A DNA stretch of 64,000 bases from Candidatus Gottesmanbacteria bacterium RBG_16_52_11 (GCA_001779095.1 MFJD01000004.1:173031-237030); one strand, 5' to 3'; shown: positions 1,800 to 25,469, counted from the first letter of the stretch. The notes: a model not told the origin generated them from the letters alone. Made by a program: numbers and translations.

Positions 1800-1803
1800 C
1801 TTT

Positions 1804-8335: not shown

Positions 8336-10480
8336 ATGTCCGCCCGGCTGAAAAAACTGATCATCCCCATGCTGCCGTATCTGTTTTTGTTTGTTGTGGC
8401 TCTGGTTATTTTCCATCCGGCATTAAACCTCAAGCCGGGAACATACCTGTTCGGATGGGACACGATGGATCAGGAATACTTCATCAAATCATTCTTCGGC
8501 GAAAACATCCGGCGCGGGGTTTTCCCGTGGTGGAATCCGTACGCGATGGGCGGGTATCCGTTCGCGTCAACCATCGACGCGGATACTTTTTATCCTCCGG
8601 TTTACCTGTTTGCGCTGCTGCCCGTGACGCAGGCGATTTCGTGGTATTACTTCATACACCTCCTTTTGGGATTAGCCGGCATGTACATCCTCTGCCGGAG
8701 ATGGTTTTCCGTCATACCGGCGCTTTTGGCAGCAGTCACTTTCATGTTTTCCGGACTATTTACCAGAATTCTGGCCGGGAGCTTCAGCATCGTCCCGTAT
8801 GCATACCTGCCGTGGTTAATGTTCCTGTTCCTCAGATCAGTTGCGGCAAATTCCCGGCGTGCGGTCTTGCGGGCTGCTGCCGCAACCGGAATTATCGGGG
8901 CGCTCCAGGTCACCGGCAGCAATCCCATCACGGTAATCTATAGCCATCTGGCGCTGATATTTGCAACCGCAGTGCTTTCGGTTTCCCGCAGAAGTCTCCG
9001 TCCGGTCCTCATCTATATATCTACCGCAGCGCTGATCGTCGGCCTGTCGGCTGTCACCACCGTGCCGATGCTTGAGGGGATATTAAATTCAGTCAGAAGC
9101 AACCTGACCTATGAATGGGCAGCGTCAGGGACGCTCCGATTTGCTGACCTCAGGCAGATGTTCCTACCCGTATTGTGGTCGTACCGGCCGGATATGAATG
9201 ATTATATGCCGTTTATCGAAAGTCCCTGGTACATCGGCATCCTGCCGCTTGTCCTTGCCGTGTCCGGACTTTTTTATGGGGTTGTTGCCGTCCTGAATTC
9301 CCTGCGCCACCGGGGGAAACGCAATACCGGTCCGGCCGTTATCATTTTCGGGATTCTGGCAGTTTTCGGGTTCTGGATGGCGTTGGGAAACCAGGCACCA
9401 TATGACTTATTCGGTCTTCTCTGGCGGTCCGTGCCGCTGTTCAGATTTATCAGGGTACCGATCAAGATTATGGTACTTTTCGTCTTCGGGATGGCAGGTT
9501 TGGCGGCATATGCAACCGAGTTGATAAGAAACCGGATTATCCGGACAGCAATTCTTTTCATAACCGTAATTGAATTAACCATATTTGCCCGGCAGTACGT
9601 CATTATTGCACTGGTTCCGGAAACCAGACACGATCAGGAGCTGGTAGCGACGCTGAAAAGCTCACAGGGGGATTACCGGATCCATCCCAATTACGTCAAA
9701 AGTTACCGCCTGGGGTATAGCTGGGACCTTAACGCCGCCAGCACCTACCGCTTTTTCTCAACCAGCGGCAATACCACATCGATTCCGGCTAACTATAACG
9801 ACTTATTCTATGCCCTGTTCCCGGGAACCGATCCGCTTTTCAGCGCCACCATGAATCAGATGCCCTGGGTGGGGTTGGATTCAGCCGGGATGGACATCCT
9901 GAATGTCAGATACATCCTGGTGCCGCGGGAAACTGAACTGGCGGAGCCCCATTATTCGCTGGTAATCGACAATCCGTCCCGGTGGTTCAGGCTGTATCGT
10001 AATAACCGGGCCTACCCCAGGTTCCGGCTTCTCAGCCGGGCTGCCGTCTACCCTGACCGGGCGGCTATGCGCCGGGCAATCGAAACCGGAAACGCCGATT
10101 TATCAGATGCCGTTTACCTGACCGAACGGGACGCCGGTGCATTGGGGACAGTTGCGGACTGTCCGTCCGCCAGTCCGGGAACAGTTTCTGTCGATGACTA
10201 TGACATATCCCGCATCAGGCTCAAAGCCGATGCGGTGTGTGATACTTACCTGACGACCGGTGAAACCATGTATCCGGGATGGTTGGCGGCAGTCGACGGA
10301 AAACGGGTGCCTATGGTTGAAGGCAATCTGGCACTGCGGACCCTGAAGATACCGCAGGGCGTTCATACGGTGGATATGTGGTACGATCCGCGTATTTACC
10401 GGATTGGGGGAGCAGTCAGCCTGGTGACCCTGATTGTCCTGGTTTTACTAAACCGAAAGCTTGGTTTTAAAGGAAATTAA
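8336..10480 (+). CDS. YfhO-like polytopic membrane glycosyltransferase (GT-C fold)
   Basis: 714 aa. N-terminal YLFGWDTMDQEYF..FPWWNPY and C-terminal GETMYPGWLAAVDGKRVPM..NLALRTLKIPQGVHTVDMWY motifs are paralogous to the 1804 and 17904 genes. Confidence 0.75.
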   Translation: MSARLKKLIIPMLPYLFLFVVALVIFHPALNLKPGTYLFGWDTMDQEYFIKSFFGENIRRGVFPWWNPYAMGGYPFASTIDADTFYPPVYLFALLPVTQAISWYYFIHLLLGLAGMYILCRRWFSVIPALLAAVTFMFSGLFTRILAGSFSIVPYAYLPWLMFLFLRSVAANSRRAVLRAAAATGIIGALQVTGSNPITVIYSHLALIFATAVLSVSRRSLRPVLIYISTAALIVGLSAVTTVPMLEGILNSVRSNLTYEWAASGTLRFADLRQMFLPVLWSYRPDMNDYMPFIESPWYIGILPLVLAVSGLFYGVVAVLNSLRHRGKRNTGPAVIIFGILAVFGFWMALGNQAPYDLFGLLWRSVPLFRFIRVPIKIMVLFVFGMAGLAAYATELIRNRIIRTAILFITVIELTIFARQYVIIALVPETRHDQELVATLKSSQGDYRIHPNYVKSYRLGYSWDLNAASTYRFFSTSGNTTSIPANYNDLFYALFPGTDPLFSATMNQMPWVGLDSAGMDILNVRYILVPRETELAEPHYSLVIDNPSRWFRLYRNNRAYPRFRLLSRAAVYPDRAAMRRAIETGNADLSDAVYLTERDAGALGTVADCPSASPGTVSVDDYDISRIRLKADAVCDTYLTTGETMYPGWLAAVDGKRVPMVEGNLALRTLKIPQGVHTVDMWYDPRIYRIGGAVSLVTLIVLVLLNRKLGFKGN

Positions 10481-10513
10481 AACGTATACCGTATACCGAA
10501 TACTTCTTCAGTT

Positions 10514-10523
10514 TGTGTATAAT
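10514..10523 (+). promoter_or_regulatory. sigma70-type extended -10 box (TGTGTATAAT) placed for a leaderless transcript of the GT2 gene
   Basis: TGTG-TATAAT lies 7 nt upstream of the ATG at 10530, with no room for an RBS. This is an inference from the consensus only. Confidence 0.35.
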
Positions 10524-10529
10524 CCTTCC

Positions 10530-11258
10530 ATGACGGAATTATCGGTGATTTTTCCCGTCCATAATGAGGCAGAGGGGATCGAGTCGTTTCTGGCCGATGC
10601 CCTGTCCACAATCAGGAAGTTAAATGTTTCCTTCGAGATTATCTGCGTGGAAAACGGTTCGACAGACGGCAGTTTGGCAATTCTTAAAAGTATTTCCAAA
10701 AAGATTAAAGACATCCGTGTCATCCGGTCCCCGAAGGGCTGGGGGAATGCGGTACGCGCGGGCATTGCTCAAGCCCGGGGAAAGCTGACCGTCTACATGG
10801 TCTCCGATTACCAGGTGGATCCCAAATACATCGCCCATATATATCATGCCTACCGTAACAGTCAGCTGGACGGGAGCGGATACCGGCTGGTAAAAGTCCG
10901 GCGGACAAACAGGGAGAATACCACCAGACTGGTGAATTCCCGGACGTATAACCTGCTGGCGTCCTTAATGTTCGGAGTGCCCAGCCGGGACATAAATGCC
11001 ACTCCGAAAGTGGCGGAAACCGCGCTTCTCAGGCGCCTGAACCTGACTTCGGATAACATCGCCATAGACCTCGAGCTGCTGCTCAAGCTGCAGTCAGAGG
11101 GGCTGGCGTGGCAGGAAATTCCTGTTCCTTCGATGCGCCGATCCAGCGGCCGGTCGACCACAAACATGAAAGCCGTATGGGAAATGATCAGCCATATGAT
11201 CGGATTCCGTTACGGAATTATCCGCAAACGCACGCCTTCAGTCACCGCCGGGAAATAA
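10530..11258 (+). CDS. GT2 family glycosyltransferase, polyprenyl-phosphate sugar synthase-like (DPM1/GtrB/CsbB type)
   Basis: Starts MTELSVIFPVHNEAEGI (the GT-A N-terminal signature) and has VENGSTDGS as the DxD-equivalent. It is about 240 aa and soluble. It follows a YfhO-like gene, matching the CsbB-YfhO pairing. The ORF-track start at 10461 is less plausible. Confidence 0.75.
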   Translation: MTELSVIFPVHNEAEGIESFLADALSTIRKLNVSFEIICVENGSTDGSLAILKSISKKIKDIRVIRSPKGWGNAVRAGIAQARGKLTVYMVSDYQVDPKYIAHIYHAYRNSQLDGSGYRLVKVRRTNRENTTRLVNSRTYNLLASLMFGVPSRDINATPKVAETALLRRLNLTSDNIAIDLELLLKLQSEGLAWQEIPVPSMRRSSGRSTTNMKAVWEMISHMIGFRYGIIRKRTPSVTAGK

Positions 11259-11296
11259 TATAAATAATCGGAGCGGGATTTGCTCCAACACCATTG

Positions 11297-12790
11297 ATGC
11301 TTATCGATCATTTTGTTACGATTCTGCCTATGCCCGGTGAAACTGTCCGGTATCGTGCGGTTGAGGATCGGCATGCCGTAGAACGGTACATGACGATGAA
11401 GTCAATCGGCCGGGATTTATTCGCCGACAGTCATGTCGTTCAAACAGGCCGGGTAAACAGCACCGATATTGACCTGGCATACCGCTTTATCGCAGATTCA
11501 GCCAGGGAAACCGATTCCGAAGTCTCCGCGTCCTTCTGGTGTCATCTCTTAATTACCCCCGAATTCATTAAATCACTGTCAGAGGAAGCAAACGCCCATG
11601 GAATTTCGGTCGATACGGATGCGATGGTATTTGCCGGAGTACTCCATGACGCCGCCAGGCTGGCATACCCGTCGGCGTACGCCCGGAACGATCTGATCCT
11701 GGACCGGATGCTCAAGGATTTCGGTATCCCCAAATCCGTCATTGATGTCCTGCCCTCATTCATCGAGCGGCTGGAAATTGCCAGCGCCATGGATTTCAGC
11801 GAGGAACAGCTGCGGGGTGACACCGGTCTGAAACACCATCAAAGCGTACTTCTGAATGCGTACCTGAGGAGTCTGACACCGGAGCAGATTATTTTCAACG
11901 TCGCCGATAATCTGTCGAAAAGGAACCATGTCGGCGTCCTGACAATGAATGATCTCAGGACGTACCTTCTGTACCTTGACGGCACGGTGTATAACGGCGA
12001 AAGCGTCTGGCCTTCAGTCAAAAATGCTTTAGCCAAACGCCGGGAGCACGCTTTGTTTCAGTGGCATCTGGTGCGCAGGTCCGTTGACTGGCTGTCTGAG
12101 AACGGCATACCGCTTGATCCGATAAGGGAAAACCTGAAGGATTACGGGGCCCGGCTGGTAGTTGCCGTCAGGCACGGAGAGGTGGAAAATCCCAGAGGCA
12201 TTGTCTACAACCGCGACAGTGTCATGGATCCGGCGGATATTGTCCGTTTAAGCGACGAGGGGCGGATGCAGATCCGGGGATTAGGGGAAAGGCTGTCCGC
12301 CCGCCGGTTCAGGTTTACCGGAATGCTGGTCAGCCCGAACACCAGAACCCTGGAGTCTGCCGGGGAATTAAGCCGTGTTTCCGGAATCACACCGGATACG
12401 GACGACAGGCTGGATGACACGTATGCACCGAATGTCTACCTGTCGGGCATGTCAATGGACCAGTTTCAGGAGGAGTTCAAAGGTGATATCTATGACGTAT
12501 CAGTATGGGGTGCTACTCACGAAAGACCGGAAACGATAGCTGCCAGAATATCCGACGTTGTACGTGATATGCGGGACAGCCTGTCTGCCGGAGAAGCGGG
12601 GATGGTCGTCACGCACGGAGATCCGCTGGCCTGGTTTCTGAATCAGGAGGAAACCGGACAGCTGCCGGCACCGCAAACGCTGAGGAACTCGCGATACCCG
12701 CCGAAAGGGAGCGCTGTCGTATTCGTATACGGACCGGACGACAGTTTGTTTACCAGCTATTTCATACACGGGACCGGGAAGAAGTATTGA
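11297..12790 (+). CDS. fusion protein: N-terminal HD-like domain (tentative) + C-terminal histidine phosphatase (PGM-like, RHG motif)
   Basis: The C-terminal third has VAVRHGEVENPRG (RHGE catalytic motif) and a second VTHGDPLAW histidine motif. The N-terminal half has H..HD-like residues (FWCHLL...VLHDAARL), which is a weak call. Confidence 0.5.
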   Translation: MLIDHFVTILPMPGETVRYRAVEDRHAVERYMTMKSIGRDLFADSHVVQTGRVNSTDIDLAYRFIADSARETDSEVSASFWCHLLITPEFIKSLSEEANAHGISVDTDAMVFAGVLHDAARLAYPSAYARNDLILDRMLKDFGIPKSVIDVLPSFIERLEIASAMDFSEEQLRGDTGLKHHQSVLLNAYLRSLTPEQIIFNVADNLSKRNHVGVLTMNDLRTYLLYLDGTVYNGESVWPSVKNALAKRREHALFQWHLVRRSVDWLSENGIPLDPIRENLKDYGARLVVAVRHGEVENPRGIVYNRDSVMDPADIVRLSDEGRMQIRGLGERLSARRFRFTGMLVSPNTRTLESAGELSRVSGITPDTDDRLDDTYAPNVYLSGMSMDQFQEEFKGDIYDVSVWGATHERPETIAARISDVVRDMRDSLSAGEAGMVVTHGDPLAWFLNQEETGQLPAPQTLRNSRYPPKGSAVVFVYGPDDSLFTSYFIHGTGKKY

Positions 12791-13428
12791 ATTATTTCTT
12801 TGCTTACCGCAAAGGAAACACCACTTTCTTTGCATATCCCGCGAAAGTGGTCAAAGAAACGACACCCCGGGTGAAGATTTTCCGATTGATCTAACCTCAC
12901 TCCGGCTGAGACAGAACCCGCAATCATACCTACAGGTTATCCGTCAAAAATATCCACAGGTCAGGAAAGTCTCATTCCTGACCTGTCAGCCTCCGTTCGA
13001 AAAGATCCATACCGGAAAATCTTCAACGGGGGAATATACCCAGATACCTATATACTTATATACCTATGTCCTGATGAATACTCCCGGCGGGGTTAATACA
13101 TAAATACGTAAATACCTAGATACCTATATATACTTATATACCTAATTCCGCGGAATACTCCCGGCGGGGATTATATCTAGATACCTAAATACTTATATAT
13201 ACTTCCCACCGGTTAGTCAGCCTGCGCTCGGTAAGTCCATTCCGGAAAATCATCAACGGTGTTTGATTGCGCAAGGCCAGGCCTTGCGAAGCTAACGGCG
13301 GGGTTAATACTTAAATACCCATATACCTAGATACCTAAATACTTATATACTTCTCTCTGACCAGCAAGAGGTGTTTATGGTATGATTGATCGATCTAACG
13401 GTCTAACTGAGTCAAGGAGGGAGAGTTT
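12791..13428. repeat. 638-bp repeat-dense, structure-rich intergenic region (repeat family A), homologous to 56316-56625
   Basis: Contents in order:
- hairpins ctttgc-ttacc-gcaaag (12797-12813) and tttctttg..caaagaaa (12825-12859);
- a conserved block gacaccccgggtgaagattttccg...ctcactccggctgagacaga;
- an 11-bp perfect inverted repeat caggtcaggaa/ttcctgacctg (12957-12985);
- two copies of the motif CAGCCTCCGTTCG...GGAAAATCTTCAACGGGG (about 12987 and 13218);
- three copies of CCCGGCGGGGTTAATA followed by ATACCTA/ATACTTA microrepeats;
- a 19-bp perfect palindrome CGCAAGGCCAGGCCTTGCG (13270-13288);
- AGGAGG RBS at 13415. Confidence 0.7.
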
Positions 13429-14352
13429 ATGCCGAAAAAGTTCAAACTGGTGATGATATCCGCGATGTACGAGAACGGCGGCAACACCCTGCAGCGGCAC
13501 CTCGACGGCCATCCGGAGCTTTACGTATACCCCTTTGAATCCCAGCCGGGTACATTCATGGTTCAGGACTTCCTGACCAGCCTGTTTCCCCAGAAGTACC
13601 GCTGGCCGGAGTTCGGCATCAGCGGCGACACCGGCCGGGACTACGAGATGATCATCGATGAGGAATTTAAGGTCCGCGTCAATACACCCCACGTATCCAA
13701 GTTCCGTCATGTATCGGACCTGGGGTGCACTAATGCCGACCGGAAAAAGGTATTCCTGCGGCTGATGAAAGGGAAAGCCCGAACCCGGGCGAACCTGATG
13801 GAGGCCTTTTACCGTTCGACATTCGAAGCCTGGAAAACACGGAAAAACAGCGGCAGGGAAATAGTTTATGTCGGTTACAGCCCGATCATCGGCGTCGACA
13901 GCGACAAGATCATCGCCGATTTCCCGGATTCCATTATCCTTCATATCGTCCGCAATCCCTATGCCGCATATGCCGAAACCAAAAGGCGGCCGGTGCCGTA
14001 TACGCTCTCAAGGTATACCCGGACCTGGAACATCATGCAGCTGGCGGCCCTGAATTTCGCCGGGCAATACCCTAAGAACGTAGTGGTGGTCCGGTTTGAG
14101 GATATGGTGGCGGATAAGGTCGGGTTTTTCCGGAAACTCAGTAAAACACTGGGTATCAGGTATTCCGACACCATGACGTATCCGTCCTGGAACGGGAAAA
14201 AACTTGACCATCAGTACCCGTGGGGAACGATCGAGATTCCGACGGAAAAAGCTAACCGGGAAACGACAAACGAACTAAACAGATCCGAACGCGAGCTGAT
14301 CAGTTCCCAGTCGGGCGTAATCAATAAGGCCTTAGGATACGACAAGTTATAA
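13429..14352 (+). CDS. sulfotransferase-like protein (tentative)
   Basis: 307 aa. A strong RBS (AGGAGGGAGAGTTT) sits upstream. ILHIVRNPYAAYAET resembles the sulfotransferase 3'-PAPS-binding motif (R[ND]PxDxxxS), and a Gly-rich N-terminal loop (SAMYENGGNT) stands in for the 5'-PSB motif. The call is not certain. Confidence 0.45.
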   Translation: MPKKFKLVMISAMYENGGNTLQRHLDGHPELYVYPFESQPGTFMVQDFLTSLFPQKYRWPEFGISGDTGRDYEMIIDEEFKVRVNTPHVSKFRHVSDLGCTNADRKKVFLRLMKGKARTRANLMEAFYRSTFEAWKTRKNSGREIVYVGYSPIIGVDSDKIIADFPDSIILHIVRNPYAAYAETKRRPVPYTLSRYTRTWNIMQLAALNFAGQYPKNVVVVRFEDMVADKVGFFRKLSKTLGIRYSDTMTYPSWNGKKLDHQYPWGTIEIPTEKANRETTNELNRSERELISSQSGVINKALGYDKL

Positions 14353-14358
14353 ATCCGC

Positions 14359-15468
14359 GTGATCCTGAGGCGTAGCGACCTTGTGACAGGAAAATCGGTT
14401 GTGAAAAAACTTCTGCCTAATCCCGATGAACTGCGGAAATACCGACAATGGCAGCGGGGAGTGTTTTTTTCCAAAGCAGACCTTATTCAAAGTCAAAAGT
14501 CAAAGATCAAAAGTCAAAATTACAGCTTAAAAGTCAAAAGTTTACAGAAAGTTGTTAAATATCACCTCAATTCAGAAATCACCCATCTTGAGAAACTTCC
14601 GCGGGCAACGCTGCACGATGTATTCCGGGTGAAAACCCCCGGGGGAAATTATATTGTCAGGACCAGGGCAGAAGAAATCAGGGCGTTTGAGTTTTACCTC
14701 GATGAACTGGCTTTCAAAGAAATGGCAAAACTCGGCGTGCGGTCCTGCGGGGTTGCTGCCGTCGATGTCTCCCGGACTTTGGTACCGTTTGACTATGAAA
14801 TCCTGACGGAGGCTGCCGGGTCATTGATCCACGACAGAGTCAGGATAGGTCGGATACGGCCGGAGGTATTCCGCGGGTTCGGCAGGGTCGTGGCTGTGAT
14901 TCATAATGTCAAAACCCGGAAATACGGTCCGTTTGACATGGAAAAACTGATATCCGGCGGTATCGCTGAAGGTATCTGGCTAACCTGGACAGATTACCTG
15001 CTGGTGAATCTGGATGAGCACGTCCAGACCTGCTTAGAGGCCGGAATATTAACCGACGCCGATGCAATGACGGTCCGCGAAATACTGCCCCGAATCCTTT
15101 TCAGTCTGCCGCCGGTGCCGCCGACCCTACTTCACGGGGATTTAGCCAACCACAACGCTTTCACCGACGGCAAAAGCATCACTGCGCTTGTCGACTGGGA
15201 GGATGCCGTCAGCGGTGATCCGGTGTACGATATCGCCTATTACGGCACGGGATGCTTCGGCCATGATGACTGGCTGAAGGAATTTATTGAAGGATACGTG
15301 GAAAATGCAGCACTACCTGCCGATTTTGAGCGGCGTTATGCCGGGTATTATATCCGGATTGCCCTGGCCAAAGCGGTAGGCCGCCTGAAGCATGGGAAAA
15401 AAGGACGGGGACTGCCCGACAGCGCAAAGCGGATTCAGGAGGGCGTCCGGGCACTCAAATCTGTTTGA
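14359..15468 (+). CDS. APH/choline-kinase-like phosphotransferase (protein-kinase-like fold)
   Basis: LLHGDLANHNAF (catalytic loop HGD...N) and VDWEDAVSGDPVYDIAY (the D[FW]E...D motif) are characteristic. The start is uncertain: the track start is a GTG, and the first about 60 codons contain a TCAAAAG heptamer tandem repeat. Confidence 0.6.
   Translation: MILRRSDLVTGKSVVKKLLPNPDELRKYRQWQRGVFFSKADLIQSQKSKIKSQNYSLKVKSLQKVVKYHLNSEITHLEKLPRATLHDVFRVKTPGGNYIVRTRAEEIRAFEFYLDELAFKEMAKLGVRSCGVAAVDVSRTLVPFDYEILTEAAGSLIHDRVRIGRIRPEVFRGFGRVVAVIHNVKTRKYGPFDMEKLISGGIAEGIWLTWTDYLLVNLDEHVQTCLEAGILTDADAMTVREILPRILFSLPPVPPTLLHGDLANHNAFTDGKSITALVDWEDAVSGDPVYDIAYYGTGCFGHDDWLKEFIEGYVENAALPADFERRYAGYYIRIALAKAVGRLKHGKKGRGLPDSAKRIQEGVRALKSV
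14486..14540. repeat. heptanucleotide tandem repeat (TCAAAAG)n, 5 contiguous copies plus 1 nearby
   Basis: Copies read ttcaaag tcaaaag tcaaaga tcaaaag tcaaaat ... tcaaaag, lying inside the 5' region of the kinase ORF. A 14-mer ATCAAAAGTCAAAA is shared with the 51821-51848 repeat. Confidence 0.7.
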
Positions 15469-15511: not shown

Positions 15512-16864
15512 TTATCTGACCGGATTAGCCGGGAGGTAGATCAGAAAGTTCCTTTGACAGCTCATTTGCTGCTCATCTTCACAGTTAGCTGTAGCTACGA
15601 ATAAGCCGTCAGTCCCAATGGACCATGCCTTAGGCAGGGCGGTAACCGAAAAGGATTTCACCGATCCGAGTGCATACTTCCGTCTTTCAAAGTATCCGGC
15701 GGTATTACTATCGGGGGTGAGTTTAGGATCTACTGCGCGGGCAACGGCTTGCAGCAGGTTAGCATCAGCAGGTACCGGAATTGTTTTTGCCGTTTCCAGT
15801 AAAACCTGCAGATCATAATCGGAGTCAATATTTGTAAGAGTCAGATCCGAAGCACCCAGTGCCAGTATTCTACGGCTCAGTATGATTTCGCGATTGGGGA
15901 TAAGCACGGCGGATGGCTTTCTTCCCGGAGCATCTGCGACAAGTTTCCGGAGCTGCCCTGCGGCCTGGGATACCCCTCCGATGAGTACTCTGAAATCTAC
16001 GGATAAACACCCGGATTTAAGGTAATCCAACCGGTCGTTAATTAATTTCAACCGTACCCCGGCGTCCGATTCAGGAGAGCTCAGATCAGTATCAGTAGCG
16101 CCTATGTTGGCTTGACCGTCAACAGCCGGTTCCGGAATTCCAGGTTCAACCGGAGCGGGCAGAAATTCTGAAAAATCAGGCTGTATGCCACCCACACCGA
16201 ACAATTGCCCCATTTCCTCTTCCGTTACTGACGGAGGCGGTTCAGGCATTACATCAGCAATATCAGGGGCAATTATCGGGAAGTAATTATCCGGTCTGCC
16301 GCCCCCTATTGCGGAATCAGGGTGCTCTACCCAATTATCCGGCTGGAATAAGGCCAGGTAACCAGAGTTCAGACCCGGATTACGCGGTTGGGGATCGTAC
16401 AGGAGATGAAGCCTGATTCGGGTAACCTGCTCTTTGGAATATTTGCTTTTCTGCATCCGTTTCCGGTCAGTCCAGACCCATAATGTTTGCTGTTGGTTCG
16501 TAAATACAAGTTCAGGATTAGCCTGGTAATCCGGGTAACTACGATGCAGGAGTTTACCGATTCTGGTATATGCATCCTGACGGAGACCATCATTATCAAT
16601 TTTGACTAAATTCAGAAGACCCAGGATCCTGTTTAATGGGAGTTCATTAGTTGAGGTTGTCCGCTCAGTAAAGGCACCATATACATATATCGGCGCGTCA
16701 GGAGTCCGGTCCGCCGCATCTTCGGCCAGCCTGGTAATTCCGTTTAAAACACTGATTAAGTCATACTCACCTACCGGAGATGTTCCATTCTGTGATCCAG
16801 CCCACAAGTCAACCACATCCGACCGAAAATAATTTAACGGGTGGTATTCTACACTTGTATTCAT
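15512..16864 (-). CDS. hypothetical protein (450 aa), no recognisable domain
   Basis: Long ORF with a Pro/Glu-rich central linker (PEPPPSVTEEE, PAPVEPGIPEPA). Its 3' end is convergent with the kinase gene, and an AT-rich divergent promoter region lies at 16865-16947. Confidence 0.5.
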   Translation of the reverse strand: MNTSVEYHPLNYFRSDVVDLWAGSQNGTSPVGEYDLISVLNGITRLAEDAADRTPDAPIYVYGAFTERTTSTNELPLNRILGLLNLVKIDNDGLRQDAYTRIGKLLHRSYPDYQANPELVFTNQQQTLWVWTDRKRMQKSKYSKEQVTRIRLHLLYDPQPRNPGLNSGYLALFQPDNWVEHPDSAIGGGRPDNYFPIIAPDIADVMPEPPPSVTEEEMGQLFGVGGIQPDFSEFLPAPVEPGIPEPAVDGQANIGATDTDLSSPESDAGVRLKLINDRLDYLKSGCLSVDFRVLIGGVSQAAGQLRKLVADAPGRKPSAVLIPNREIILSRRILALGASDLTLTNIDSDYDLQVLLETAKTIPVPADANLLQAVARAVDPKLTPDSNTAGYFERRKYALGSVKSFSVTALPKAWSIGTDGLFVATANCEDEQQMSCQRNFLIYLPANPVR

Positions 16865-16947: not shown

Positions 16948-17907
16948 ATGATTGTCTCCAGCACTGCCGGGTTTATGAAACAGACTGCCGTAGTAACCGG
17001 GGCATCGGGATTTGTCGGCTCCAATATCGTCAGGAGACTACTGACTGACGGTTACCGGGTACACGCACTGGTCCGTAAAGGCGGCGATCCCTGGCGGCTC
17101 GTCGGCCTTCGAAACAAACTGGTATTGCATGAGGGCGTGCTTGACAGTAAATCCAGGCTGACTGCGCTTATGCACAAAGTGCGGCCGCAGGCGGTTTTCC
17201 ACCTGGCAACATACGGATCCTACCCAACGCAGATTGACCTAAGCCGCGTCATCAGGGTAAATGTCAACGGAACCGCTAATCTCCTTGAAAGCACGCTCCG
17301 CGTGCCGTATACGCGGCTGATTGTCGCCGGCAGCTCTTCGGAATACGGGAAAAAGGACGTCCCGATGCGTGAGGATGACGCTGTCGATCCAAACAACATG
17401 TATGCGGCAGCTAAGACGGCAGCCACCACACTGGCCCGGACATTCGCCCGGGTTTACCGTAAACCGGTTACGATATTCCGGCTATTCAGCGTCTACGGGC
17501 CCGGTGAGGAAAAGGGGAGGCTGGTGCGCTCCGTCATCGAATCGGCACTGGCGGGTGAGCCGGTCAGGCTAGCCAGCGGCAGGGAAGCCCGGGACCTGAT
17601 ATATACGGCGGATATTGCCGACGCTTTCGTATATACGGCCGGTCTGAAGCGGCAGATACCTGACGGGGAAATTTTCAACATCGGAACCGGTGTCCAGACT
17701 ACCATCCGGGAACTGGCGCAGAAAGTCATCCGGTTAACCGGCAGCAAATCGGAAATCAAACTGAACGCTTATGCCGGCCGGTTGTGGGACGCCTACACCT
17801 GGAAAGCCGATACGGCCAAAACCCGCAGTGAAATCGGCTGGACTGCCACAACCGGCCTGACCGACGGACTGAAAAAAACCATAGACTGGTACCGTAGCCG
17901 GGTATGA
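16948..17907 (+). CDS. NAD-dependent sugar epimerase/dehydratase (SDR family)
   Basis: AVVTGASGFVGSNIVRRL is the Rossmann GxxGxxG, and YAAAK is the SDR YxxxK catalytic motif. An alternative ATG lies at 16975 (MKQTAVVTG). ATTATTCTG sits immediately upstream (16934-16942). Confidence 0.8.
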   Translation: MIVSSTAGFMKQTAVVTGASGFVGSNIVRRLLTDGYRVHALVRKGGDPWRLVGLRNKLVLHEGVLDSKSRLTALMHKVRPQAVFHLATYGSYPTQIDLSRVIRVNVNGTANLLESTLRVPYTRLIVAGSSSEYGKKDVPMREDDAVDPNNMYAAAKTAATTLARTFARVYRKPVTIFRLFSVYGPGEEKGRLVRSVIESALAGEPVRLASGREARDLIYTADIADAFVYTAGLKRQIPDGEIFNIGTGVQTTIRELAQKVIRLTGSKSEIKLNAYAGRLWDAYTWKADTAKTRSEIGWTATTGLTDGLKKTIDWYRSRV

Positions 17908-20069
17908 AACGAACCGTATCAGCGGTTTTCCTGTTTGCCATCCTGTCTGCAATACTTCTCTGGCCGGCACTGGCGGCGCCGGACGGGATGATGCTTGCGG
18001 GTTATGACCTCCGGAGGTACTTCTATTTCATATACCGCTTCTGGAACGAAGCGATCGGAAGGAGGGAATTCCCGTGGTGGAACCCATATCTTTTCAACGG
18101 AATCCCGTTTGCCGCCAATCCGAAATCCGGCGTCTGGTATCCGCTTAACTGGATACTGGCAGCCGGTCCGGTGCCCCGGGCATTTGCAATCTATATTTGG
18201 TTTCACCTTGTTATTGCGATGACCGGGATGTACCGGCTGTTAAAGCTGAACCTGAAGACTTCCGGACTTCCGGCAGCAGCGGGGGGCGTGCTTTTCGGAT
18301 TGTCGGGATTCTTCGGGGCGAAGATATTCATCGGCGGGCTGGATATGATCGCCGCGGCAAGTTACATACCCTGGGTATTCGGTGCCTGGTGGCCTTTTCT
18401 TACCGGAACCGGCAGTATCAGGCGCCGGCAGCTGATGTATCCGGTGATTGTCACAGTAGTCCAGTTTGTCAGCGGATACCAGACGATATCGCTTTTTACC
18501 TGGATGTCGCTGGTACTGGCGTCATTGGTAGTTGCCGCAGCCAGAAGAACCGTCAAACCGTTAATCAGGATAGTACTCGGTCTGGCTGCTACTGCGGGAT
18601 TTTTGGGATTCACCCTGCTGCCTAACCGGGAATACCTCATATTAAGTCTGCGCAGCCGGGACATGTCATATGAAAGGTCGGCTCAGGGAGCCCTCACGCC
18701 GGAGCTTCTGGCGGAGCTGGTCCGGCCGGATGCTTTCGGCGGACCGGCGGGGAACACCGGACCGATGCAGTTTTTCTGGGAACGGGCGGGATACATCGGT
18801 GTAATCGGTCTGGTTTTGGCGGTTACGACGTTCTTAATTACCTTACTTCCAGCGCGTCTTGTCGGATCAGTCAGGTTATTCAGGGAATCAGGCAACCGAT
18901 TGCCGGTTCTGATTTTTTCCCTGACTGCGGTACTGGCGGTATGGATCAGCCTCGGGCCGAATGCACCGGTTGACATGTTCGAGGTTTTCTACCGGATTAA
19001 TCCCGTCTACCGGGGCATCCGGATACCGGCAAGGCACATGGTGCTGTTTACTTTTTCCGCCAGTGCCCTTGCCGGGCTTCTGCTGTCGCGGATCCGCCGG
19101 AAGGGAATTGTGCTTTGTATTCTGATATTGGCAACATTGGAACTGCTGCCGGCAGGCCGGAAATACGTGGAGCTTGCTCCGACACCAGCGGCGAAAGCCG
19201 ACCGCGAACTGGTTAGCTTACTGGTAAGCGATCCGGGAGTAAACCGGCTGATGGTTAATTATCCGCACGTATCCTACCCGACTGACAGTCTGGACACGAA
19301 CCAGGTATTGGAATTCCAAATCCGCTCGACCAACGGATATGAAACCGGGCAGCTCCGGGCAATTTACGAACTGGCGGAAATATTAAACGGCAATCCGGTG
19401 ACCGGTAATGAGTCGGACGCCCAGGTGCCGGTAATCGAACGGCCGGACCTGCCGTTCAGCAATGTTCTGGGCGGGACTTATGTTCTCGTTGATGCGTCCG
19501 ACGATCCGGTTACCCGAAGCGGAGTATCCGGGTATATTCCGCTGACAGACAGGACAGACCGTCCCTACCGGCTATACCGCAACCCCGCCGCGGCTCCCCG
19601 GCATTATCTGGTTACGGAATCCGACAATGTGCAGAGCTCAGAGGTATTTACAGCCGCGGTCAGGGATCCTGCGTTCAGTCTGGGCGACAAAGTAATTGGC
19701 TACCCCGATGCCTTACCACCCCTTGAAACAACCGGCTTCTGCAATCCATACGGCCGGGTAGAGACGTTATCATCAACGCTGAACAGCGTGACCGTGGCAG
19801 TTGACACCGGTTGTCCGGCTTATCTGGTTTCCACGGAGACGATGTATCCGGGATGGCGGGCATGGATTGACGGAACGGAAATTCCGGTATATTCGGCAAA
19901 CGGCGCTTTCCGGACTATCATCATCCCCCCGGGCAGCAGTATTGTCCGGTTTGAATTCTTCCCGCGAAGCTTCGTAGGCGGATCGATGCTGACGGTACTT
20001 ACGCTGGTAGTGCTTATACTGTTGCCGGGGAATACGGGTAATTTGCGAACCGTCCGGAACCGGTTATAA
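17904..20069 (+). CDS. YfhO-like polytopic membrane glycosyltransferase (GT-C fold)
   Basis: 721 aa with FPWWNPYLFNGIPFAA and C-terminal TETMYPGWRAWIDGTEIPV..NGAFRTIIIPPGSSIVRFEF motifs. A 4-nt start/stop overlap with the upstream epimerase indicates an operon. Confidence 0.75.
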   Translation: MKRTVSAVFLFAILSAILLWPALAAPDGMMLAGYDLRRYFYFIYRFWNEAIGRREFPWWNPYLFNGIPFAANPKSGVWYPLNWILAAGPVPRAFAIYIWFHLVIAMTGMYRLLKLNLKTSGLPAAAGGVLFGLSGFFGAKIFIGGLDMIAAASYIPWVFGAWWPFLTGTGSIRRRQLMYPVIVTVVQFVSGYQTISLFTWMSLVLASLVVAAARRTVKPLIRIVLGLAATAGFLGFTLLPNREYLILSLRSRDMSYERSAQGALTPELLAELVRPDAFGGPAGNTGPMQFFWERAGYIGVIGLVLAVTTFLITLLPARLVGSVRLFRESGNRLPVLIFSLTAVLAVWISLGPNAPVDMFEVFYRINPVYRGIRIPARHMVLFTFSASALAGLLLSRIRRKGIVLCILILATLELLPAGRKYVELAPTPAAKADRELVSLLVSDPGVNRLMVNYPHVSYPTDSLDTNQVLEFQIRSTNGYETGQLRAIYELAEILNGNPVTGNESDAQVPVIERPDLPFSNVLGGTYVLVDASDDPVTRSGVSGYIPLTDRTDRPYRLYRNPAAAPRHYLVTESDNVQSSEVFTAAVRDPAFSLGDKVIGYPDALPPLETTGFCNPYGRVETLSSTLNSVTVAVDTGCPAYLVSTETMYPGWRAWIDGTEIPVYSANGAFRTIIIPPGSSIVRFEFFPRSFVGGSMLTVLTLVVLILLPGNTGNLRTVRNRL

Positions 20070-20077: not shown

Positions 20078-20986
20078 ATGGCAGTCAGTCTTAATAGGCC
20101 ACCTCAGCTGAACTCCGGACAGCTCCGGGAAAAAGCCCGCGAAGTCGCACTATCGGTACTCGACATATCATACCGCAACCGGATAGGCCACGTCGGATCG
20201 GCGCTGTCGATTTCGGACATACTGACTGCACTTTACTTTACCCGGTTGCGGATCAACCGGAAGACACTTGACCATCCCGAGCGCGACCGCTTCATCCTGT
20301 CGAAAGGCCACGCCGCCGCGGCGCTTTACGCCGCTCTTTACCATCGGGGAATACTGGATAAACGGGAGTTTGATTCGTTCGGGTGTGACGGGGGCTTATG
20401 CGAACATCCGGAAATTAAGGATCCCGGTGTGGAAATGACAGCCGGCAGCCTGGGACACGGGCTGGCGTTCGGAGCGGGAATCGCCCTGGGACTCCGGAAG
20501 AAGTATGCAGTATCCGGTATCCGGTATACAGTATCAAATCCAAAAAATATTCGGAATACTGAATACCGAACACGGAATACTTTCCCTCATGTCTTCGTGC
20601 TGATCTCGGACGGGGAATGCGGGGAAGGATCGGTATGGGAAGCGGCGTTATTCGCCTCCCGGATGGGTCTTGACAACCTGACGGCAATCCTTGACTACAA
20701 CGGCTGGCAGTGTTTCGGGCGCGTCAAAGACATTACGCCGTTGGAGCCGGTCGGGGATAAATGGCGGTCATTCGGATGGGACGCTGTCGAGGTTAACGGG
20801 CATGATACGACAGCACTGGCCGGTGTTTTCCGGAGCCCCAACCTGTCAGGGAAACCCCGGATAATTATCGCCCGGACCGTATCGGGCAAAGGCGTACCGG
20901 CCATCGAAAACCAGCTGATCGGCCACTATAAAGTTTTCACCGAAGCGGAGTACCTTACCGGGCGTCAGGAATTACTCAGCCACTGA
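20078..20986 (+). CDS. transketolase, N-terminal (ThDP/PP-domain) subunit of a split enzyme
   Basis: Carries DRFILSKGHAAAALYA and GSLGHGL..ISDGECGEGSVWEAA..A (the GDG ThDP-binding region). About 300 aa with no Pyr or C-terminal domains, which is typical of tktA-N split genes. It contains an unusual insertion of about 24 aa (nt about 20504-20590) compared with the paralog at 50943. Confidence 0.8.
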   Translation: MAVSLNRPPQLNSGQLREKAREVALSVLDISYRNRIGHVGSALSISDILTALYFTRLRINRKTLDHPERDRFILSKGHAAAALYAALYHRGILDKREFDSFGCDGGLCEHPEIKDPGVEMTAGSLGHGLAFGAGIALGLRKKYAVSGIRYTVSNPKNIRNTEYRTRNTFPHVFVLISDGECGEGSVWEAALFASRMGLDNLTAILDYNGWQCFGRVKDITPLEPVGDKWRSFGWDAVEVNGHDTTALAGVFRSPNLSGKPRIIIARTVSGKGVPAIENQLIGHYKVFTEAEYLTGRQELLSH

Positions 20987-23233: not shown

Positions 23234-23315
23234 GCGCCTATCATAGCACGGGAGGCGGGCCGGTCTTGCACAAGCCGCCGGCTATGGGCGATAATACGTG
23301 CTTGTCATACCTGTT

Positions 23316-24654: not shown

Positions 24655-25431
24655 TTAAAGTTGCTGGAATCCGGCGACCATATTTCTAAACCCGGATACG
24701 ACAACCGGATTAACCAGCCGGAGCGGATTAATCTGCCTGTCCACCGATCCCCTCGGAAGCTTCATCCGCGCGTTATATTCGTCAACTGATTCATCGATTC
24801 TGTGTTTAATCCAACTTTTCTTACTAACCGGTTTCTCCGGGAGGAAGGTATCCAGCCGGGTCCGTTGGTTTCTGCCGAAGATTTCAAATAAGCTGGAAAT
24901 CATGAAGTCGGACTTTTTGGCGTGGGGCATGGTCCGTTCGAAATGATTAATGAGTGCGTTATAGCCAAGTCCGACGGCAACATCCTGCGCCAGATTGCTG
25001 AAATCTTTGTTCGGAGTGTACCTCAGTTTGAGTCTTTCCATCACCAGACCGATACCGACGCCGACTGCAGTCTGTTTGGCACCGGCCACGAACTGATCAT
25101 TCTGTTTGAGTGCGCCTAATTTCTCGCCTGCCCTCTGCCGCAGGTCAGCCAGTTTAGACTTGGCATCATTAGTAATTGATATGAAGGAGTCCCGGAACCG
25201 CTTCTGATTGGGTGTCTCAGGCAAATCAGGCGCCTCCTGTTGAGTCACGGTTTCCGACTTCACAGGTGCTTCCGCAGGCGGGAGAACCTCGGATTGTGCA
25301 GGTGATTCCGGTATAGCAGCCGGAGTTTCCGGTGTTTCGGCCCTCTGTTCGAGCTGCTGGATGGGTGTTTCGCCGGTATTTTCCGCCATAGATCTTATTT
25401 CCAGAGTGTCAGAAAACGGCGGAGTTGTCAA
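24655..25431 (-). CDS. hypothetical protein with Pro/Glu/Thr-rich N-terminal low-complexity region (258 aa)
   Basis: The N-terminal 90 aa are ETPETPAAIPESPAQSEVLPPAEAPVKSETVTQQEAPDLPETP. The C-terminal 160 aa look globular with no recognised motif. Confidence 0.45.
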   Translation of the reverse strand: MTTPPFSDTLEIRSMAENTGETPIQQLEQRAETPETPAAIPESPAQSEVLPPAEAPVKSETVTQQEAPDLPETPNQKRFRDSFISITNDAKSKLADLRQRAGEKLGALKQNDQFVAGAKQTAVGVGIGLVMERLKLRYTPNKDFSNLAQDVAVGLGYNALINHFERTMPHAKKSDFMISSLFEIFGRNQRTRLDTFLPEKPVSKKSWIKHRIDESVDEYNARMKLPRGSVDRQINPLRLVNPVVVSGFRNMVAGFQQL

Positions 25432-25469
25432 CCTGTCAGCCTGCCTGTGATATATTGGAGCGGTCAGGT

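What the first reader, a model, noticed from the sequence alone, without database searches (positions are those of the whole stretch)
11297..15468. Glycan-decoration module: HD/histidine-phosphatase fusion, sulfotransferase-like protein and APH-like kinase
Three consecutive plus-strand genes are separated by the 638-bp repeat region. They encode a two-domain phosphohydrolase (RHGE histidine phosphatase with an HD-like N-terminal domain), a putative sulfotransferase (RNPYAAYAE 3'-PB-like motif) and an APH-family kinase. Sulfation and phosphorylation of envelope glycans are rare in bacteria and well known in some archaea and symbionts. This combination next to the glycosyltransferases suggests anionic modification of the glycan.
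Basis: partly seen in the sequence, partly recalled or inferred. Interest (0 to 1): 0.5.

Follow-up and report, generated by a model that had tools for sequence, protein, structure and literature searches.

The report
Atypical sulfotransferase-like sugar-tailoring gene cassette
The three genes are real, but the 'sulfotransferase' lacks the residues that normally hold the sulfate donor and instead marks a widespread, unstudied gene set that probably builds an unusual branched sugar for decorating the cell envelope.

Summary
Three plus-strand genes encode an HD-like/histidine-phosphatase fusion (11294-12790), a sulfotransferase-fold protein (13429-14352) and an APH-type kinase (14359-15468), with a 638-bp repeat-rich spacer after the first.

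ORF2 marks a cassette found in about 350 species across many phyla. The cassette comprises an NDP-hexose 4,6-dehydratase-like SDR, a further SDR, a split transketolase, a GtrB-like GT2 and sometimes a glucose-1-P cytidylyltransferase. ORF2 is flanked either by the APH kinase or by DUF4915, never both (32 vs 26 vs 0 of 64 loci). The cassette transketolases keep their catalytic residues but have lost two classical acceptor-site residues.

Most likely the cassette makes a branched 6-deoxyhexose that is loaded on polyprenyl phosphate for the window's GT-C transferases. ORF1 is a rare accessory of the same pathway (5 of 7 family members lie beside such genes). The chemistry of ORF2 is unknown, and canonical sulfation is not excluded.

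The parts
10461..11258 (+). GT2 glycosyltransferase, polyprenyl-phosphate sugar synthase-like (ArnC/PgfS/GtrB type). It is the first gene of the conserved cassette.
   Evidence: Pfam Glycos_transf_2 4.6e-22. Best NCBIfam similarities are ArnC, PgfS, AglJ and dolichyl-P hexose transferase, all below equivalog cutoffs. Its orthologue lies 35-50 bp upstream of the ST-like gene in L005, L008, L009 and L011.
11294..12790 (+). ORF1: two-domain phosphohydrolase. The HD-superfamily domain spans about aa 26-280 (nt 11369-12133) and the branch-1 histidine phosphatase about aa 286-492 (nt 12149-12769). It is a rare accessory gene inserted between GT2 and the ST-like gene.
12791..13428 (.). 638-bp non-coding spacer with AT-rich octamer arrays flanked by CGGCGGGG, 24-nt direct repeats and a 20-nt inverted repeat. 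It contains a promoter-like site and the Shine-Dalgarno sequence of ORF2.
   Evidence: 11 octamer-pair matches against 0.05 expected. Promoter-like site 13357-13386 with TG-extended -10. AAGGAGG lies 8 nt before the ATG at 13429. No Rfam family.
13429..14352 (+). ORF2: sulfotransferase-fold enzyme with a non-canonical (acidic) donor site. It is the marker gene of the cassette.
14359..15468 (+). ORF3: APH/eukaryotic-like small-molecule kinase, the coupled partner of ORF2.
   Evidence: APH 1.4e-20. Nearest solved relative is hygromycin B 4-O-kinase, 7e-11. H259, D261, N266 and D279 are conserved in 37 orthologues, whose start overlaps the ST-like stop by 4-38 nt in most loci. Present in 32 of 64 loci and never together with DUF4915.
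15512..16864 (-). 450-aa ORF with no family match. It interrupts the cassette relative to the compact operon of relatives.
   Evidence: No Pfam, NCBIfam or PADLOC hit. Absent from the compact operons.
16948..17907 (+). SDR epimerase/dehydratase/reductase ('SDR1'), a conserved cassette member that precedes the transketolase in relatives.
   Evidence: Epimerase 9.8e-52. Orthologues score 320-380 bits in L001 and L005-L009, directly upstream of TK-N.
17904..20069 (+). YfhO-like GT-C membrane glycosyltransferase inserted between SDR1 and TK-N. It is a candidate final transferase.
   Evidence: YfhO C-terminal match 24.5 bits (cutoff 28.5); weak PgfM2 similarity.
20078..20986 (+). Split transketolase, N-terminal (ThDP/PP-domain) subunit.
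   Evidence: Transketolase_N 1.6e-35. H26, H66, H100, D155, N185 and H261 equivalents are conserved.
20972..23233 (-). 753-aa ORF with no family match, lying between the two transketolase subunits.
   Evidence: No Pfam hit.
23298..24248 (+). Split transketolase, C-terminal (Pyr + C domain) subunit with an altered acceptor site.
   Evidence: Transket_pyr 5.5e-37. Closest solved structure is the Carboxydothermus split TK, 2.2e-54. E411 and H473 are kept; the His461 equivalent is Gly and the Asp469 equivalent is Ala.

Best explanation
ORF2 and ORF3 are the coupled core pair of a widely distributed, uncharacterized nucleotide-sugar tailoring cassette. They are not a stand-alone sulfation/phosphorylation module.

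Proposed pathway:
1. An NDP-glucose is formed. It is CDP-glucose where the cassette carries its own glucose-1-P cytidylyltransferase.
2. An SDR 4,6-dehydratase converts it to an NDP-4-keto-6-deoxyhexose.
3. The split transketolase, which keeps its ThDP and donor-side residues but has lost classical sugar-phosphate acceptor residues, adds a two-carbon hydroxyacetyl branch to the keto sugar.
4. A second SDR reduces the product.
5. ORF3 phosphorylates a sugar hydroxyl, and ORF2 carries out a transfer or substitution step on the same intermediate.
6. The GtrB/ArnC-like GT2 loads the finished sugar onto polyprenyl phosphate. It is flipped, and one of the many GT-C (YfhO/PMT_2-like) enzymes of this window attaches it outside the membrane.

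ORF2 is a sulfotransferase-fold transferase. Its nucleotide pocket has been remodelled (Glu for the catalytic Arg/Lys, Asp/Glu for the 3'-phosphate Ser), so it probably does not use PAPS in the canonical way. ORF1 (HD + histidine phosphatase) is a rare accessory phosphohydrolase of the same pathway, plausibly removing a phosphate introduced earlier.

Shown: the folds, the residue substitutions, the gene linkage and the partner exclusivity.
Inferred: every chemical step, the substrate of each enzyme and the final acceptor.
For: Fold and active site of ORF2:
- The TPST1 alignment puts family Y-E-N-G-G-N on P-R-S-G-T-T, and family RNP.....D/E on TPST and CurM R.......S.
- hhalign against the canonical outgroup: probability 100%, E 2.7e-44, with the same column equivalences.
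- Glu15 in 76/76; position 183 is Asp in 50 and Glu in 26; Arg175, Thr184, Arg187 and Glu37 are invariant.
- The Arg->acid and Ser->acid switch is shared by the sister clade N-D-S-G-G-G.

Cassette:
- In 84 loci: SDR 65, TK-N 57, TK-C 57, GT2 51, APH 38, NTP-transferase 24. TK is present in 38 of 46 loci with at least 6 kb of flank.
- Compact operon GT2-ST-APH-SDR-SDR-TKN-TKC in the closest relatives.
- The sister clade, including the isolate Kaistia algarum, has SDR-GtrA-GT2-NTP-DUF4915-SDR-TKN-TKC-ST.
- The NTP-transferase is a glucose-1-P cytidylyltransferase, 325.9 bits against a cutoff of 300.25. The neighbouring SDRs best match CDP- or dTDP-glucose 4,6-dehydratase.

Partners:
- APH only 32, DUF4915 only 26, both 0, neither 6.
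- DUF4915-ST fusion proteins occur in both domain orders.
- Kinase catalytic residues are conserved and the genes overlap.

Transketolase:
- Catalytic and cofactor residues are conserved. His461->Gly in 43/43 and Asp469 lost in 42/43, whereas the characterized split TK keeps both.

Precedent:
- Split-gene TKs have been proposed to hydroxyacetylate keto sugars, and YerE branches a CDP-4-keto sugar (PMC12247030).

Sulfate activation:
- No CysC or CysD homologue in the window or in 1.38 Mb of related loci.
- The family occurs in reduced-genome lineages (CPR, Babeliales, Micrarchaeota).
Against: - No biochemical datum exists for any member, and no paper in the library mentions the family, DUF4915 or the cassette.
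- The 3'-PB Arg175 and many invariant basic residues (R23, K81, K91, R105, R118, R120, K185, R187) remain. A compensating cationic residue could restore PAPS binding, so true sulfotransfer is not excluded.
- I could not inspect model coordinates. The pocket geometry is inferred from sequence-to-structure alignment only.
- SDR assignments to '4,6-dehydratase' are best hits below equivalog cutoffs.
- The window itself has no cytidylyltransferase of this type, and its cassette is interrupted four times.
- Transketolase action on a keto sugar has never been demonstrated for any enzyme.
- The order of steps and the roles of ORF2, ORF3 and ORF1 are guesses constrained only by gene linkage.
Confidence: 0.55

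Rival explanations
1. ORF2 is a genuine PAPS- or APS-dependent sulfotransferase and ORF3 a glycan or sugar kinase. Together with ORF1 they add or trim anionic groups (sulfate, phosphate) on the envelope glycan or its precursor.
For: - The 3'-PB Arg175 and a likely catalytic base (Glu37, conserved out to the canonical outgroup) are retained.
- Many invariant basic residues could bind an anionic nucleotide.
- The kinase is catalytically intact.
- The glycan context is real.
Against: - The 5'-PSB Lys/Arg is a basic residue in every solved sulfotransferase aligned here and in the closest outgroup. In the family it is Glu in 76/76. The 3'-phosphate Ser is Asp/Glu in 76/76.
- No sulfate-activation genes lie near any of 84 loci or in the window.
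- The family is frequent in CPR, Dependentiae and DPANN genomes. That these lineages generally lack sulfate assimilation is my own background knowledge and was not tested here.
Confidence: 0.2
2. A heptose-like de novo route. The split transketolase works on ordinary sugar phosphates to make an unusual ketose/aldose phosphate. ORF3 is an anomeric sugar-1-kinase. ORF1's histidine phosphatase removes the distal phosphate, as GmhB does. A nucleotidyltransferase then activates the sugar-1-phosphate. ORF2 has an auxiliary role such as isomerase or regulator.
For: - The kinase + phosphatase + nucleotidyltransferase + transketolase combination mirrors the GmhA/HldE/GmhB logic.
- The window carries a second APH + split-TK pair directly beside a bona fide heptose gene set.
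- ORF1 homologues sit between TK and NTP-transferase in L093.
- APH co-occurs with the NTP-transferase in 13 of 15 loci that have the latter.
- Some APH-fold enzymes are anomeric sugar kinases (own knowledge: NahK, AmgK).
Against: - The cassette transketolases have lost the phosphate-binding His461 and the Asp469 equivalents in 43/43 and 42/43.
- The nucleotidyltransferase scores as a glucose-1-P cytidylyltransferase above the equivalog cutoff, a substrate that needs no special kinase.
- Half of the loci have no kinase at all (DUF4915 instead), and ORF1 is present in very few.
- No isomerase is conserved in the cassette.
- ORF3 is closest to kinases of secondary hydroxyls (APH(4)), not to known anomeric kinases.
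Confidence: 0.15
3. ORF2 is a non-catalytic pseudo-sulfotransferase. It would be a scaffold or substrate-binding subunit that partners with the kinase or DUF4915.
For: - Loss of two hallmark cofactor contacts.
- Obligate pairing with one of two partners, and gene fusions with DUF4915.
Against: - Conservation is extreme: at least 50% identity across phyla, with about 50 invariant columns, many of them polar or charged and clustered in the P-loop, the E-S-Q motif, the D-E-E motif and RNP...TKKRP. That pattern is typical of an active site, not a scaffold.
- The substitutions are specific (always acidic) rather than degenerate.
Confidence: 0.07

Closest known systems
PAPS-dependent sulfotransferases of the TPST / CurM-OLS 'activating' ST type (Pfam Sulfotransfer_3 clan)
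   Different: The catalytic 5'-PSB Arg/Lys is Glu and the 3'-phosphate Ser is Asp/Glu, both invariant. Pfam matches only the C-terminal two-thirds of the model. There is no NCBIfam model. The family is genomically tied to a transketolase/SDR cassette rather than to PAPS synthesis.
Yersiniose-type branched-sugar pathways (DdhA, DdhB, ThDP enzyme YerE, reductase YerF)
   Same: CDP-glucose synthase, NDP-hexose 4,6-dehydratase, a ThDP-dependent C-C ligase and an SDR reductase encoded together for an envelope glycan (PMC12247030 for YerE; remainder from own knowledge).
   Different: The ThDP enzyme here is a split transketolase, not a YerE-like decarboxylase. There are no 3-deoxygenation genes. The cassette adds an ST-fold protein plus kinase or DUF4915. 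Export appears to go through a Gtr-like lipid-monosaccharide route.
Split-gene transketolases proposed for miharamycin/amipurimycin sugar branching
   Same: A two-subunit transketolase encoded beside sugar oxidoreductases. [quoted passage not shown]
   Different: Those are Streptomyces antibiotic clusters (13 predicted, none characterized). This cassette is a cell-envelope glycan system found in hundreds of species of many phyla.
Three-component lipid-linked monosaccharide decoration systems (GtrA/GtrB/GtrC; CsbB-YfhO; PgfS-PgfM; ArnC-ArnT)
   Same: A GT2 of the ArnC/PgfS/GtrB type, a GtrA-family protein in sister-clade loci, and YfhO/PMT_2-type GT-C enzymes in the window.
   Different: The transferred sugar would be a heavily tailored, probably branched, deoxyhexose rather than glucose, GlcNAc or Ara4N. 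The acceptor is unknown. All similarities are below equivalog cutoffs.
APH(4)-Ia hygromycin B kinase and kinase-plus-partner pairs such as class V lanthipeptide LxmK
   Same: APH fold with intact HxDxxxxN and Mg-binding Asp. Best solved match is APH(4)-Ia (7e-11). There is a weak LxmK hit (4e-4). The kinase gene is translationally coupled to a partner enzyme.
   Different: This is not a resistance gene context. The substrate is presumably a (nucleotide-)sugar, and the partner is an ST-fold protein.
Nucleotide-heptose pathway (GmhA, HldE, GmhB, HldD)
   Same: It uses kinase, phosphatase and nucleotidyltransferase logic. A true copy of this set lies at 44899-49301 in the same window, next to a second APH + split-TK pair.
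   Different: ORF1-3 share no orthology with these genes. The cassette lacks an isomerase, and its transketolase lacks phosphate-binding acceptor residues.

Membership tests
PAPS-dependent sulfotransferase (Sulfotransfer_1/3 superfamily) | Sulfotransferase alpha/beta fold | tested here: met
PAPS-dependent sulfotransferase (Sulfotransfer_1/3 superfamily) | Profile match above the curated threshold | tested here: met
   PF13469, 43.3 bits against a cutoff of 27, but only model positions 81-216. No NCBIfam model matches.
PAPS-dependent sulfotransferase (Sulfotransfer_1/3 superfamily) | 5'-phosphosulfate-binding loop with catalytic Lys/Arg (PKxGTT / xRSGTT) | tested here: not met
   Y-E15-N-G-G-N aligns to TPST1 P-R-S-G-T-T and to outgroup Q-R-S-G-G-T. 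Glu in 76/76.
PAPS-dependent sulfotransferase (Sulfotransfer_1/3 superfamily) | 3'-phosphate-binding motif R-x7-S | tested here: not met
   Arg175 is kept (76/76), but the Ser position is Asp (50) or Glu (26). TPST1, CurM ST and the outgroup all have Ser.
PAPS-dependent sulfotransferase (Sulfotransfer_1/3 superfamily) | Catalytic base (Glu/His) for acceptor deprotonation | tested here: inconclusive
   Invariant Glu37 (P-F-E-S-Q) is conserved into the canonical outgroup and lies within one residue of the TPST CGEE motif in the alignment. It was not verified in 3D.
PAPS-dependent sulfotransferase (Sulfotransfer_1/3 superfamily) | PAPS supply in the organism (sat/cysDN, cysC) | tested here: inconclusive
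   None among about 53 window ORFs or in 1.38 Mb around 84 loci.
APH / eukaryotic-like small-molecule kinase (PF01636) | Profile match above threshold, with catalytic HxDxxxxN and Mg-binding Asp | tested here: met
   74.6 bits against a cutoff of 23.2. H259, D261, N266 and D279 are at least 95% conserved in 37 orthologues.
Aminoglycoside resistance kinase APH(4)-Ia | Equivalog-level similarity or a resistance context | tested here: not met
   NF000107, 33 bits against a cutoff of 725. The context is a sugar-biosynthesis operon.
Histidine phosphatase superfamily, branch 1 | RHG catalytic motif, second His, and fold | tested here: met
HD-domain metal-dependent phosphohydrolase superfamily | H...HD...D metal ligands and the all-helical HD fold | tested here: inconclusive
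ThDP-dependent keto-sugar branching pathway (YerE-like or split-TK type) | ThDP enzyme with intact cofactor and catalytic residues, encoded with an NDP-hexose 4,6-dehydratase and a reductase | tested here: met
   Split TK with H26, H66, H100, D155, N185, H261, E411 and H473 equivalents conserved. SDRs best match CDP-/dTDP-glucose 4,6-dehydratase, below equivalog cutoffs. Linkage in 38/46 loci.
ThDP-dependent keto-sugar branching pathway (YerE-like or split-TK type) | Carboligation onto an NDP-keto sugar | not testable with these tools
   Only indirect: loss of the phosphate-binding His461 and of Asp469 in the acceptor site. This activity has never been shown for any TK.
Gtr-like lipid-linked monosaccharide decoration system | GtrB-type GT2 + GtrA-family flippase + GT-C transferase | tested here: inconclusive
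   GT2 is present. GtrA_DPMS_TM is present in sister-clade loci L089 and L090 but was not identified in the window. YfhO-like matches are just below the cutoff, and three PMT_2 proteins are above it.

The most novel reading that the evidence does not exclude
ORF2-type proteins (YENGGN and NDSGGG clades) are a new functional class of sulfotransferase-fold enzymes that no longer use PAPS.

The acidic residues that replace the Arg/Lys and the Ser would bind a metal and the free ribose 3'-OH of an ordinary nucleotide such as a CDP-sugar. Two reactions are then conceivable. The enzyme could transfer a phospho-group (phosphosugar transfer analogous to sulfuryl transfer). Alternatively, it could displace the phosphate installed by the coupled APH kinase. 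Together with a split transketolase that branches an NDP-4-keto-6-deoxyhexose, this would yield a previously undescribed branched or bicyclic envelope sugar.

That would make the cassette the first transketolase-based sugar-branching pathway in cell-envelope glycans. It is spread by horizontal transfer through at least 350 species, from CPR bacteria and Planctomycetes to DPANN archaea.
Probability: 0.3. Interest if true: 0.8.

Novelty: new variant of a known kind. Interest (0 to 1): 0.6.

Why it matters
Databases label thousands of these proteins 'sulfotransferase', and that label would be read as evidence for sulfated glycans in CPR bacteria and many other uncultured lineages. The residue analysis shows the label is unsafe.

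If the family uses another donor, it defines a new chemistry on a classic fold. If the linked split transketolase really branches a nucleotide keto-sugar, that would be the first natural envelope-glycan example of a reaction so far only postulated for two Streptomyces antibiotics.

The cassette also occurs in the cultured Kaistia algarum, so the question can be tested directly. The strict APH-or-DUF4915 alternation gives a handle on the function of DUF4915/TIGR03032, for which I found no literature.

Tried and rejected
- Sequence searches of ORF1 and ORF2 against PDB chains found nothing significant. Fold searches were needed.
- NCBIfam has no model for ORF2.
- Rfam, tRNA and PADLOC scans were negative. 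A defence-system or RNA-element reading of the locus is rejected.
- Eight literature searches found nothing on the family, on DUF4915/TIGR03032 or on the gene combination. The Actinoplanes EPS paper only shows that split TKs occur in other uncharacterized EPS clusters.
- I first concluded that ORF1 was unrelated to the pathway, because two homologues lie in housekeeping contexts. I withdrew this after the other contexts showed TK/SDR/GT2 neighbours.
- The second APH in the window (49957-50946) is not a paralogue of ORF3 (BLASTP E 0.007).
- CysC/CysD/CysN searches of all fetched DNA gave only one GTPase-type CysN-like hit.
- A greedy longest-ORF gene call under-counted genes in high-GC loci, producing spurious antisense 'family 6'. 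The counts used here come from the profile-based scan instead.
- I could not obtain model coordinates, so no pocket or docking analysis was possible.

Full report
ORIGIN AND OBSERVATION

The window comes from Candidatus Gottesmanbacteria bacterium RBG_16_52_11 (CPR/Microgenomates), from a 266,770-bp contig. ORF1 and ORF2 are identical to NCBI proteins A2Z33_03900 and A2Z33_03905, both named 'hypothetical protein'.

The three plus-strand ORFs exist as described: 11294-12790 (TTG at 11294; the ATG at 11297 gives the 497-aa database protein), 13429-14352 and 14359-15468. The 638-bp gap at 12791-13428 is also as described. Pfam gives His_Phos_1 5.2e-17, Sulfotransfer_3 6.5e-11 and APH 1.4e-20, all above gathering scores. 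The spacer really is repeat-rich: an octamer-pair pattern occurs 11 times there against 0.05 expected in the whole window.

ORF2: RIGHT FOLD, WRONG COFACTOR SITE

The family's invariant N-terminal motif MISAMYENGGNT occupies the 5'-phosphosulfate-binding loop. The HMMER alignment to TPST1 places Y-E-N-G-G-N on P-R-S-G-T-T. It also places the family's vRnPysayaD on TPST1 VRDGRASVHS and on CurM VRHPYSVIES. So the catalytic Arg/Lys is Glu15, and the Ser that binds the 3'-phosphate is Asp/Glu183.

In the 76-sequence alignment Glu15 is present in 76/76, and position 183 is Asp in 50 and Glu in 26. Arg175, Thr184, Arg187 and Glu37 are invariant.

An exhaustive profile search (3,837 representatives with E at most 1e-3) shows three shells:
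- The ORF2 clade has YENGGN and RNP.....D/E.
- A sister clade has NDSGGG and R.P.....D.
- An outgroup has canonical QRSGGT and RNPxSWYAS.

Profile-profile alignment of the ORF2 family against that outgroup has probability 100% and E 2.7e-44, with exactly these column equivalences. Two cofactor contacts thus switched together from (Arg, Ser) to (acid, acid) in a large clade. I infer that the nucleotide pocket no longer accommodates PAPS in the canonical way. An acidic residue at a ribose-phosphate site usually selects for a free hydroxyl, as in NAD versus NADP discrimination (established principle, used here by analogy). An acidic residue in the P-loop suggests metal-mediated binding. This is inference; I had no access to model coordinates.

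THE REAL UNIT IS A CONSERVED CASSETTE

The ORF2 family is large and very conserved: more than 3,500 hits, and the top 120 are all at least 53% identical. In one-genome-per-species data, 350 loci encode it. They come from CPR phyla, Planctomycetota, Bacteroidota, Actinomycetota, Armatimonadota, Melainabacteria, Acidobacteriota, Pseudomonadota, Dependentiae, Dormibacterota and a Micrarchaeota archaeon.

In 84 fetched loci, profile scans with the window's own proteins find an SDR in 65, each split-transketolase subunit in 57, a GT2 in 51, the APH kinase in 38 and a nucleotidyltransferase in 24. Among 46 loci with at least 6 kb on both sides, 38 have the transketolase.

The closest relatives carry a compact operon GT2-ST-APH-SDR-SDR-TKN-TKC, with 35-50 bp between GT2 and ST. 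The window has the same genes in the same order, interrupted four times:
1. ORF1 plus the repeat spacer.
2. A 450-aa minus-strand ORF.
3. A YfhO-like gene.
4. A 753-aa minus-strand ORF.

Where present, the nucleotidyltransferase is a glucose-1-phosphate cytidylyltransferase (TIGR02623, 325.9 bits against a cutoff of 300.25). The adjacent SDRs best match CDP- or dTDP-glucose 4,6-dehydratase, below equivalog cutoffs.

The sister clade sits in the same cassette with a GtrA-family gene. In the cultured Kaistia algarum and in two metagenomic contigs the order is SDR-GtrA-GT2-NTP-DUF4915-SDR-TKN-TKC-ST.

TWO ALTERNATIVE PARTNERS

Unbiased clustering of neighbouring genes revealed a 387-aa family directly upstream of the ST-like gene in kinase-less loci. 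It is DUF4915/TIGR03032, an NHL-type beta-propeller by its only PDB sequence matches.

Of 64 loci with at least 1.5 kb on both sides, 32 have APH only, 26 have DUF4915 only, none has both and 6 have neither. DUF4915-ST fusion proteins occur in both domain orders. The kinase orthologues keep H259, D261, N266 and D279, and usually overlap the ST-like stop codon by 4-38 nt. ORF2 therefore works as a pair with one of two non-homologous partners.

THE TRANSKETOLASE IS ACTIVE BUT NOT CLASSICAL

Residues were mapped onto E. coli TktA, whose numbering I verified against the sequence. Equivalents of H26, H66, H100, D155, N185, H261, E411, F437 and H473 are conserved in 43-51 cassette enzymes. The phosphate-binding His461 is Gly in 43/43, and Asp469 is replaced in 42/43.

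The characterized Carboxydothermus split transketolase is the closest solved relative (2.2e-54). It keeps both residues: ATHAG...GEDGASH against the window's GIGAG...TKAGPTH. This fits a non-phosphorylated, non-aldose acceptor.

A recent review states that split-gene transketolases have been proposed, but never shown, to transfer a hydroxyacetyl unit to a keto sugar in miharamycin and amipurimycin biosynthesis. It adds that the 13 predicted enzymes of this kind are all from Streptomyces. It also notes that YerE branches CDP-3,6-dideoxy-4-keto-glucose in yersiniose formation (PMC12247030).

ORF1

The architecture is very rare: 6 proteins in the 5.8-billion-sequence collection, plus one more found in L008. 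Their seven contexts are:
- The window and L092: YfhO-GT2-ORF1.
- L093: TKN-TKC-ORF1-NTP-SDR.
- L094: TKC-SDR-ORF1-GT2.
- L008: inside the cassette, between two SDRs.
- Two housekeeping neighbourhoods.

Five of seven beside split-TK sugar genes is far more than chance would give. ORF1 is a rare accessory of the pathway, although it is separated from ORF2 here by a spacer with its own promoter-like site and Shine-Dalgarno sequence.

SULFATE ACTIVATION

None of the roughly 53 window ORFs is a sulfate-activation enzyme. E. coli CysC, CysD and CysN, searched against all ORFs of the window and 87 loci (1.38 Mb), gave only one GTPase-type CysN-like hit. The rest of the genome could not be searched.

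MOST LIKELY MECHANISM (INFERRED)

1. NDP-glucose is converted to an NDP-4-keto-6-deoxyhexose by the SDR dehydratase.
2. The split transketolase adds a C2 hydroxyacetyl branch.
3. An SDR reduces the product.
4. The ORF3/ORF2 pair tailors it: ORF3 phosphorylates, and ORF2 performs a transfer or displacement step that uses a non-PAPS nucleotide or acts on the phosphate ester.
5. The GtrB/ArnC-like GT2 transfers the sugar to polyprenyl phosphate, and it is flipped.
6. One of the window's many GT-C enzymes (YfhO-like x4-6, PMT_2 x3) attaches it outside the membrane.

ORF1 would remove a phosphate at some stage. I give this overall scheme 0.55. Rivals:
- Canonical sulfation plus phosphorylation: 0.2.
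- A heptose-like sugar-phosphate route with ORF3 as an anomeric kinase: 0.15.
- A pseudoenzyme reading of ORF2: about 0.07.

NOVELTY AND VERDICT

The domain families are known. The new points are:
- The acidic-loop sulfotransferase-fold clade.
- Its obligate linkage to an atypical split transketolase.
- The APH/DUF4915 alternation.
- The breadth of distribution.

I found no literature on any of these. I rate it a new variant of a known kind, with interest 0.6. The finding as written (interest 0.5) was right about what is there and wrong, or at least unproven, about what it does.

Noticed in passing
window 12791-13428: The spacer between ORF1 and ORF2 has a peculiar repeat architecture. Three blocks begin with CGGCGGGG followed by arrays of the octamer ATACCTAn. 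There is also a 24-nt direct repeat (13006/13236) and a 20-nt inverted repeat (12865/13013). The octamer pattern is essentially unique to this spacer in the window (11 of 12 matches). There is no Rfam hit, and its function (regulatory array, or remnant of a mobile element that brought in ORF1) is unknown.
   Followed up: partly
window 44899-52957: A nucleotide-heptose gene set is directly followed by a second, unrelated APH-like kinase (49957-50946) and a second split transketolase (50943-51788, 51935-52957). The heptose set comprises an HldE-like protein with reversed domain order (cytidylyltransferase-PfkB, 44899-46440), an SDR (46510), GmhA (47540) and a HAD phosphatase (48240, minus strand). 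The second TK-N is 42% identical to the first. This second transketolase also lacks the His461 and Asp469 equivalents.
   Followed up: partly
related loci L036-L084, L089-L091: DUF4915/TIGR03032 is an uncharacterized NHL-like beta-propeller family. It is the mutually exclusive alternative to the APH kinase next to the ST-like gene (26 vs 32 vs 0 of 64 loci), and it occurs fused to the ST-like domain in both orders. No paper in the library mentions it.
   Followed up: partly
window 15-1799, 1777-3990, 6212-8185(-), 8336-10480, 17904-20069, 20972-23233(-), 25425-26729, 58291-59757, 61635-62879: The density of large polytopic GT-C-type proteins within 64 kb is unusually high: four with YfhO-like C-termini, two similar-sized proteins with no hit, and three PMT_2. 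They come with at least six GT2s, seven SDRs and five methyltransferases. This suggests many parallel lipid-linked glycosylation routes in a small CPR genome.
   Followed up: no
window 15512-16864(-) and 20972-23233(-): Two minus-strand ORFs (450 aa and 753 aa) with no Pfam, NCBIfam or PADLOC match interrupt the otherwise conserved operon. The second splits the two transketolase subunit genes.
   Followed up: no
window 30851-40000: A low-GC stretch (0.39-0.46 against about 0.52 elsewhere) contains five consecutive minus-strand ORFs (30851-36678) with no Pfam match, followed by a methyltransferase, a GT2 and an Acyl_transf_3 gene. It may be a horizontally acquired island.
   Followed up: no
loci L005, L008, L009, L011, L018, L034: Several MAGs titled 'uncultured Gammaproteobacteria' carry cassettes 59-71% identical to, and syntenic with, the Gottesmanbacteria/Levybacteria version. 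Either the cassette was recently transferred or these automated taxonomic labels are unreliable.
   Followed up: no
window 14489-14541: A short 7-nt tandem array (AAAGTCA x7.7) lies inside the 5' part of ORF3. It encodes a K/S/Q-rich low-complexity stretch (KSKIKSQNYSLKVKS) upstream of the conserved kinase core.
   Followed up: no
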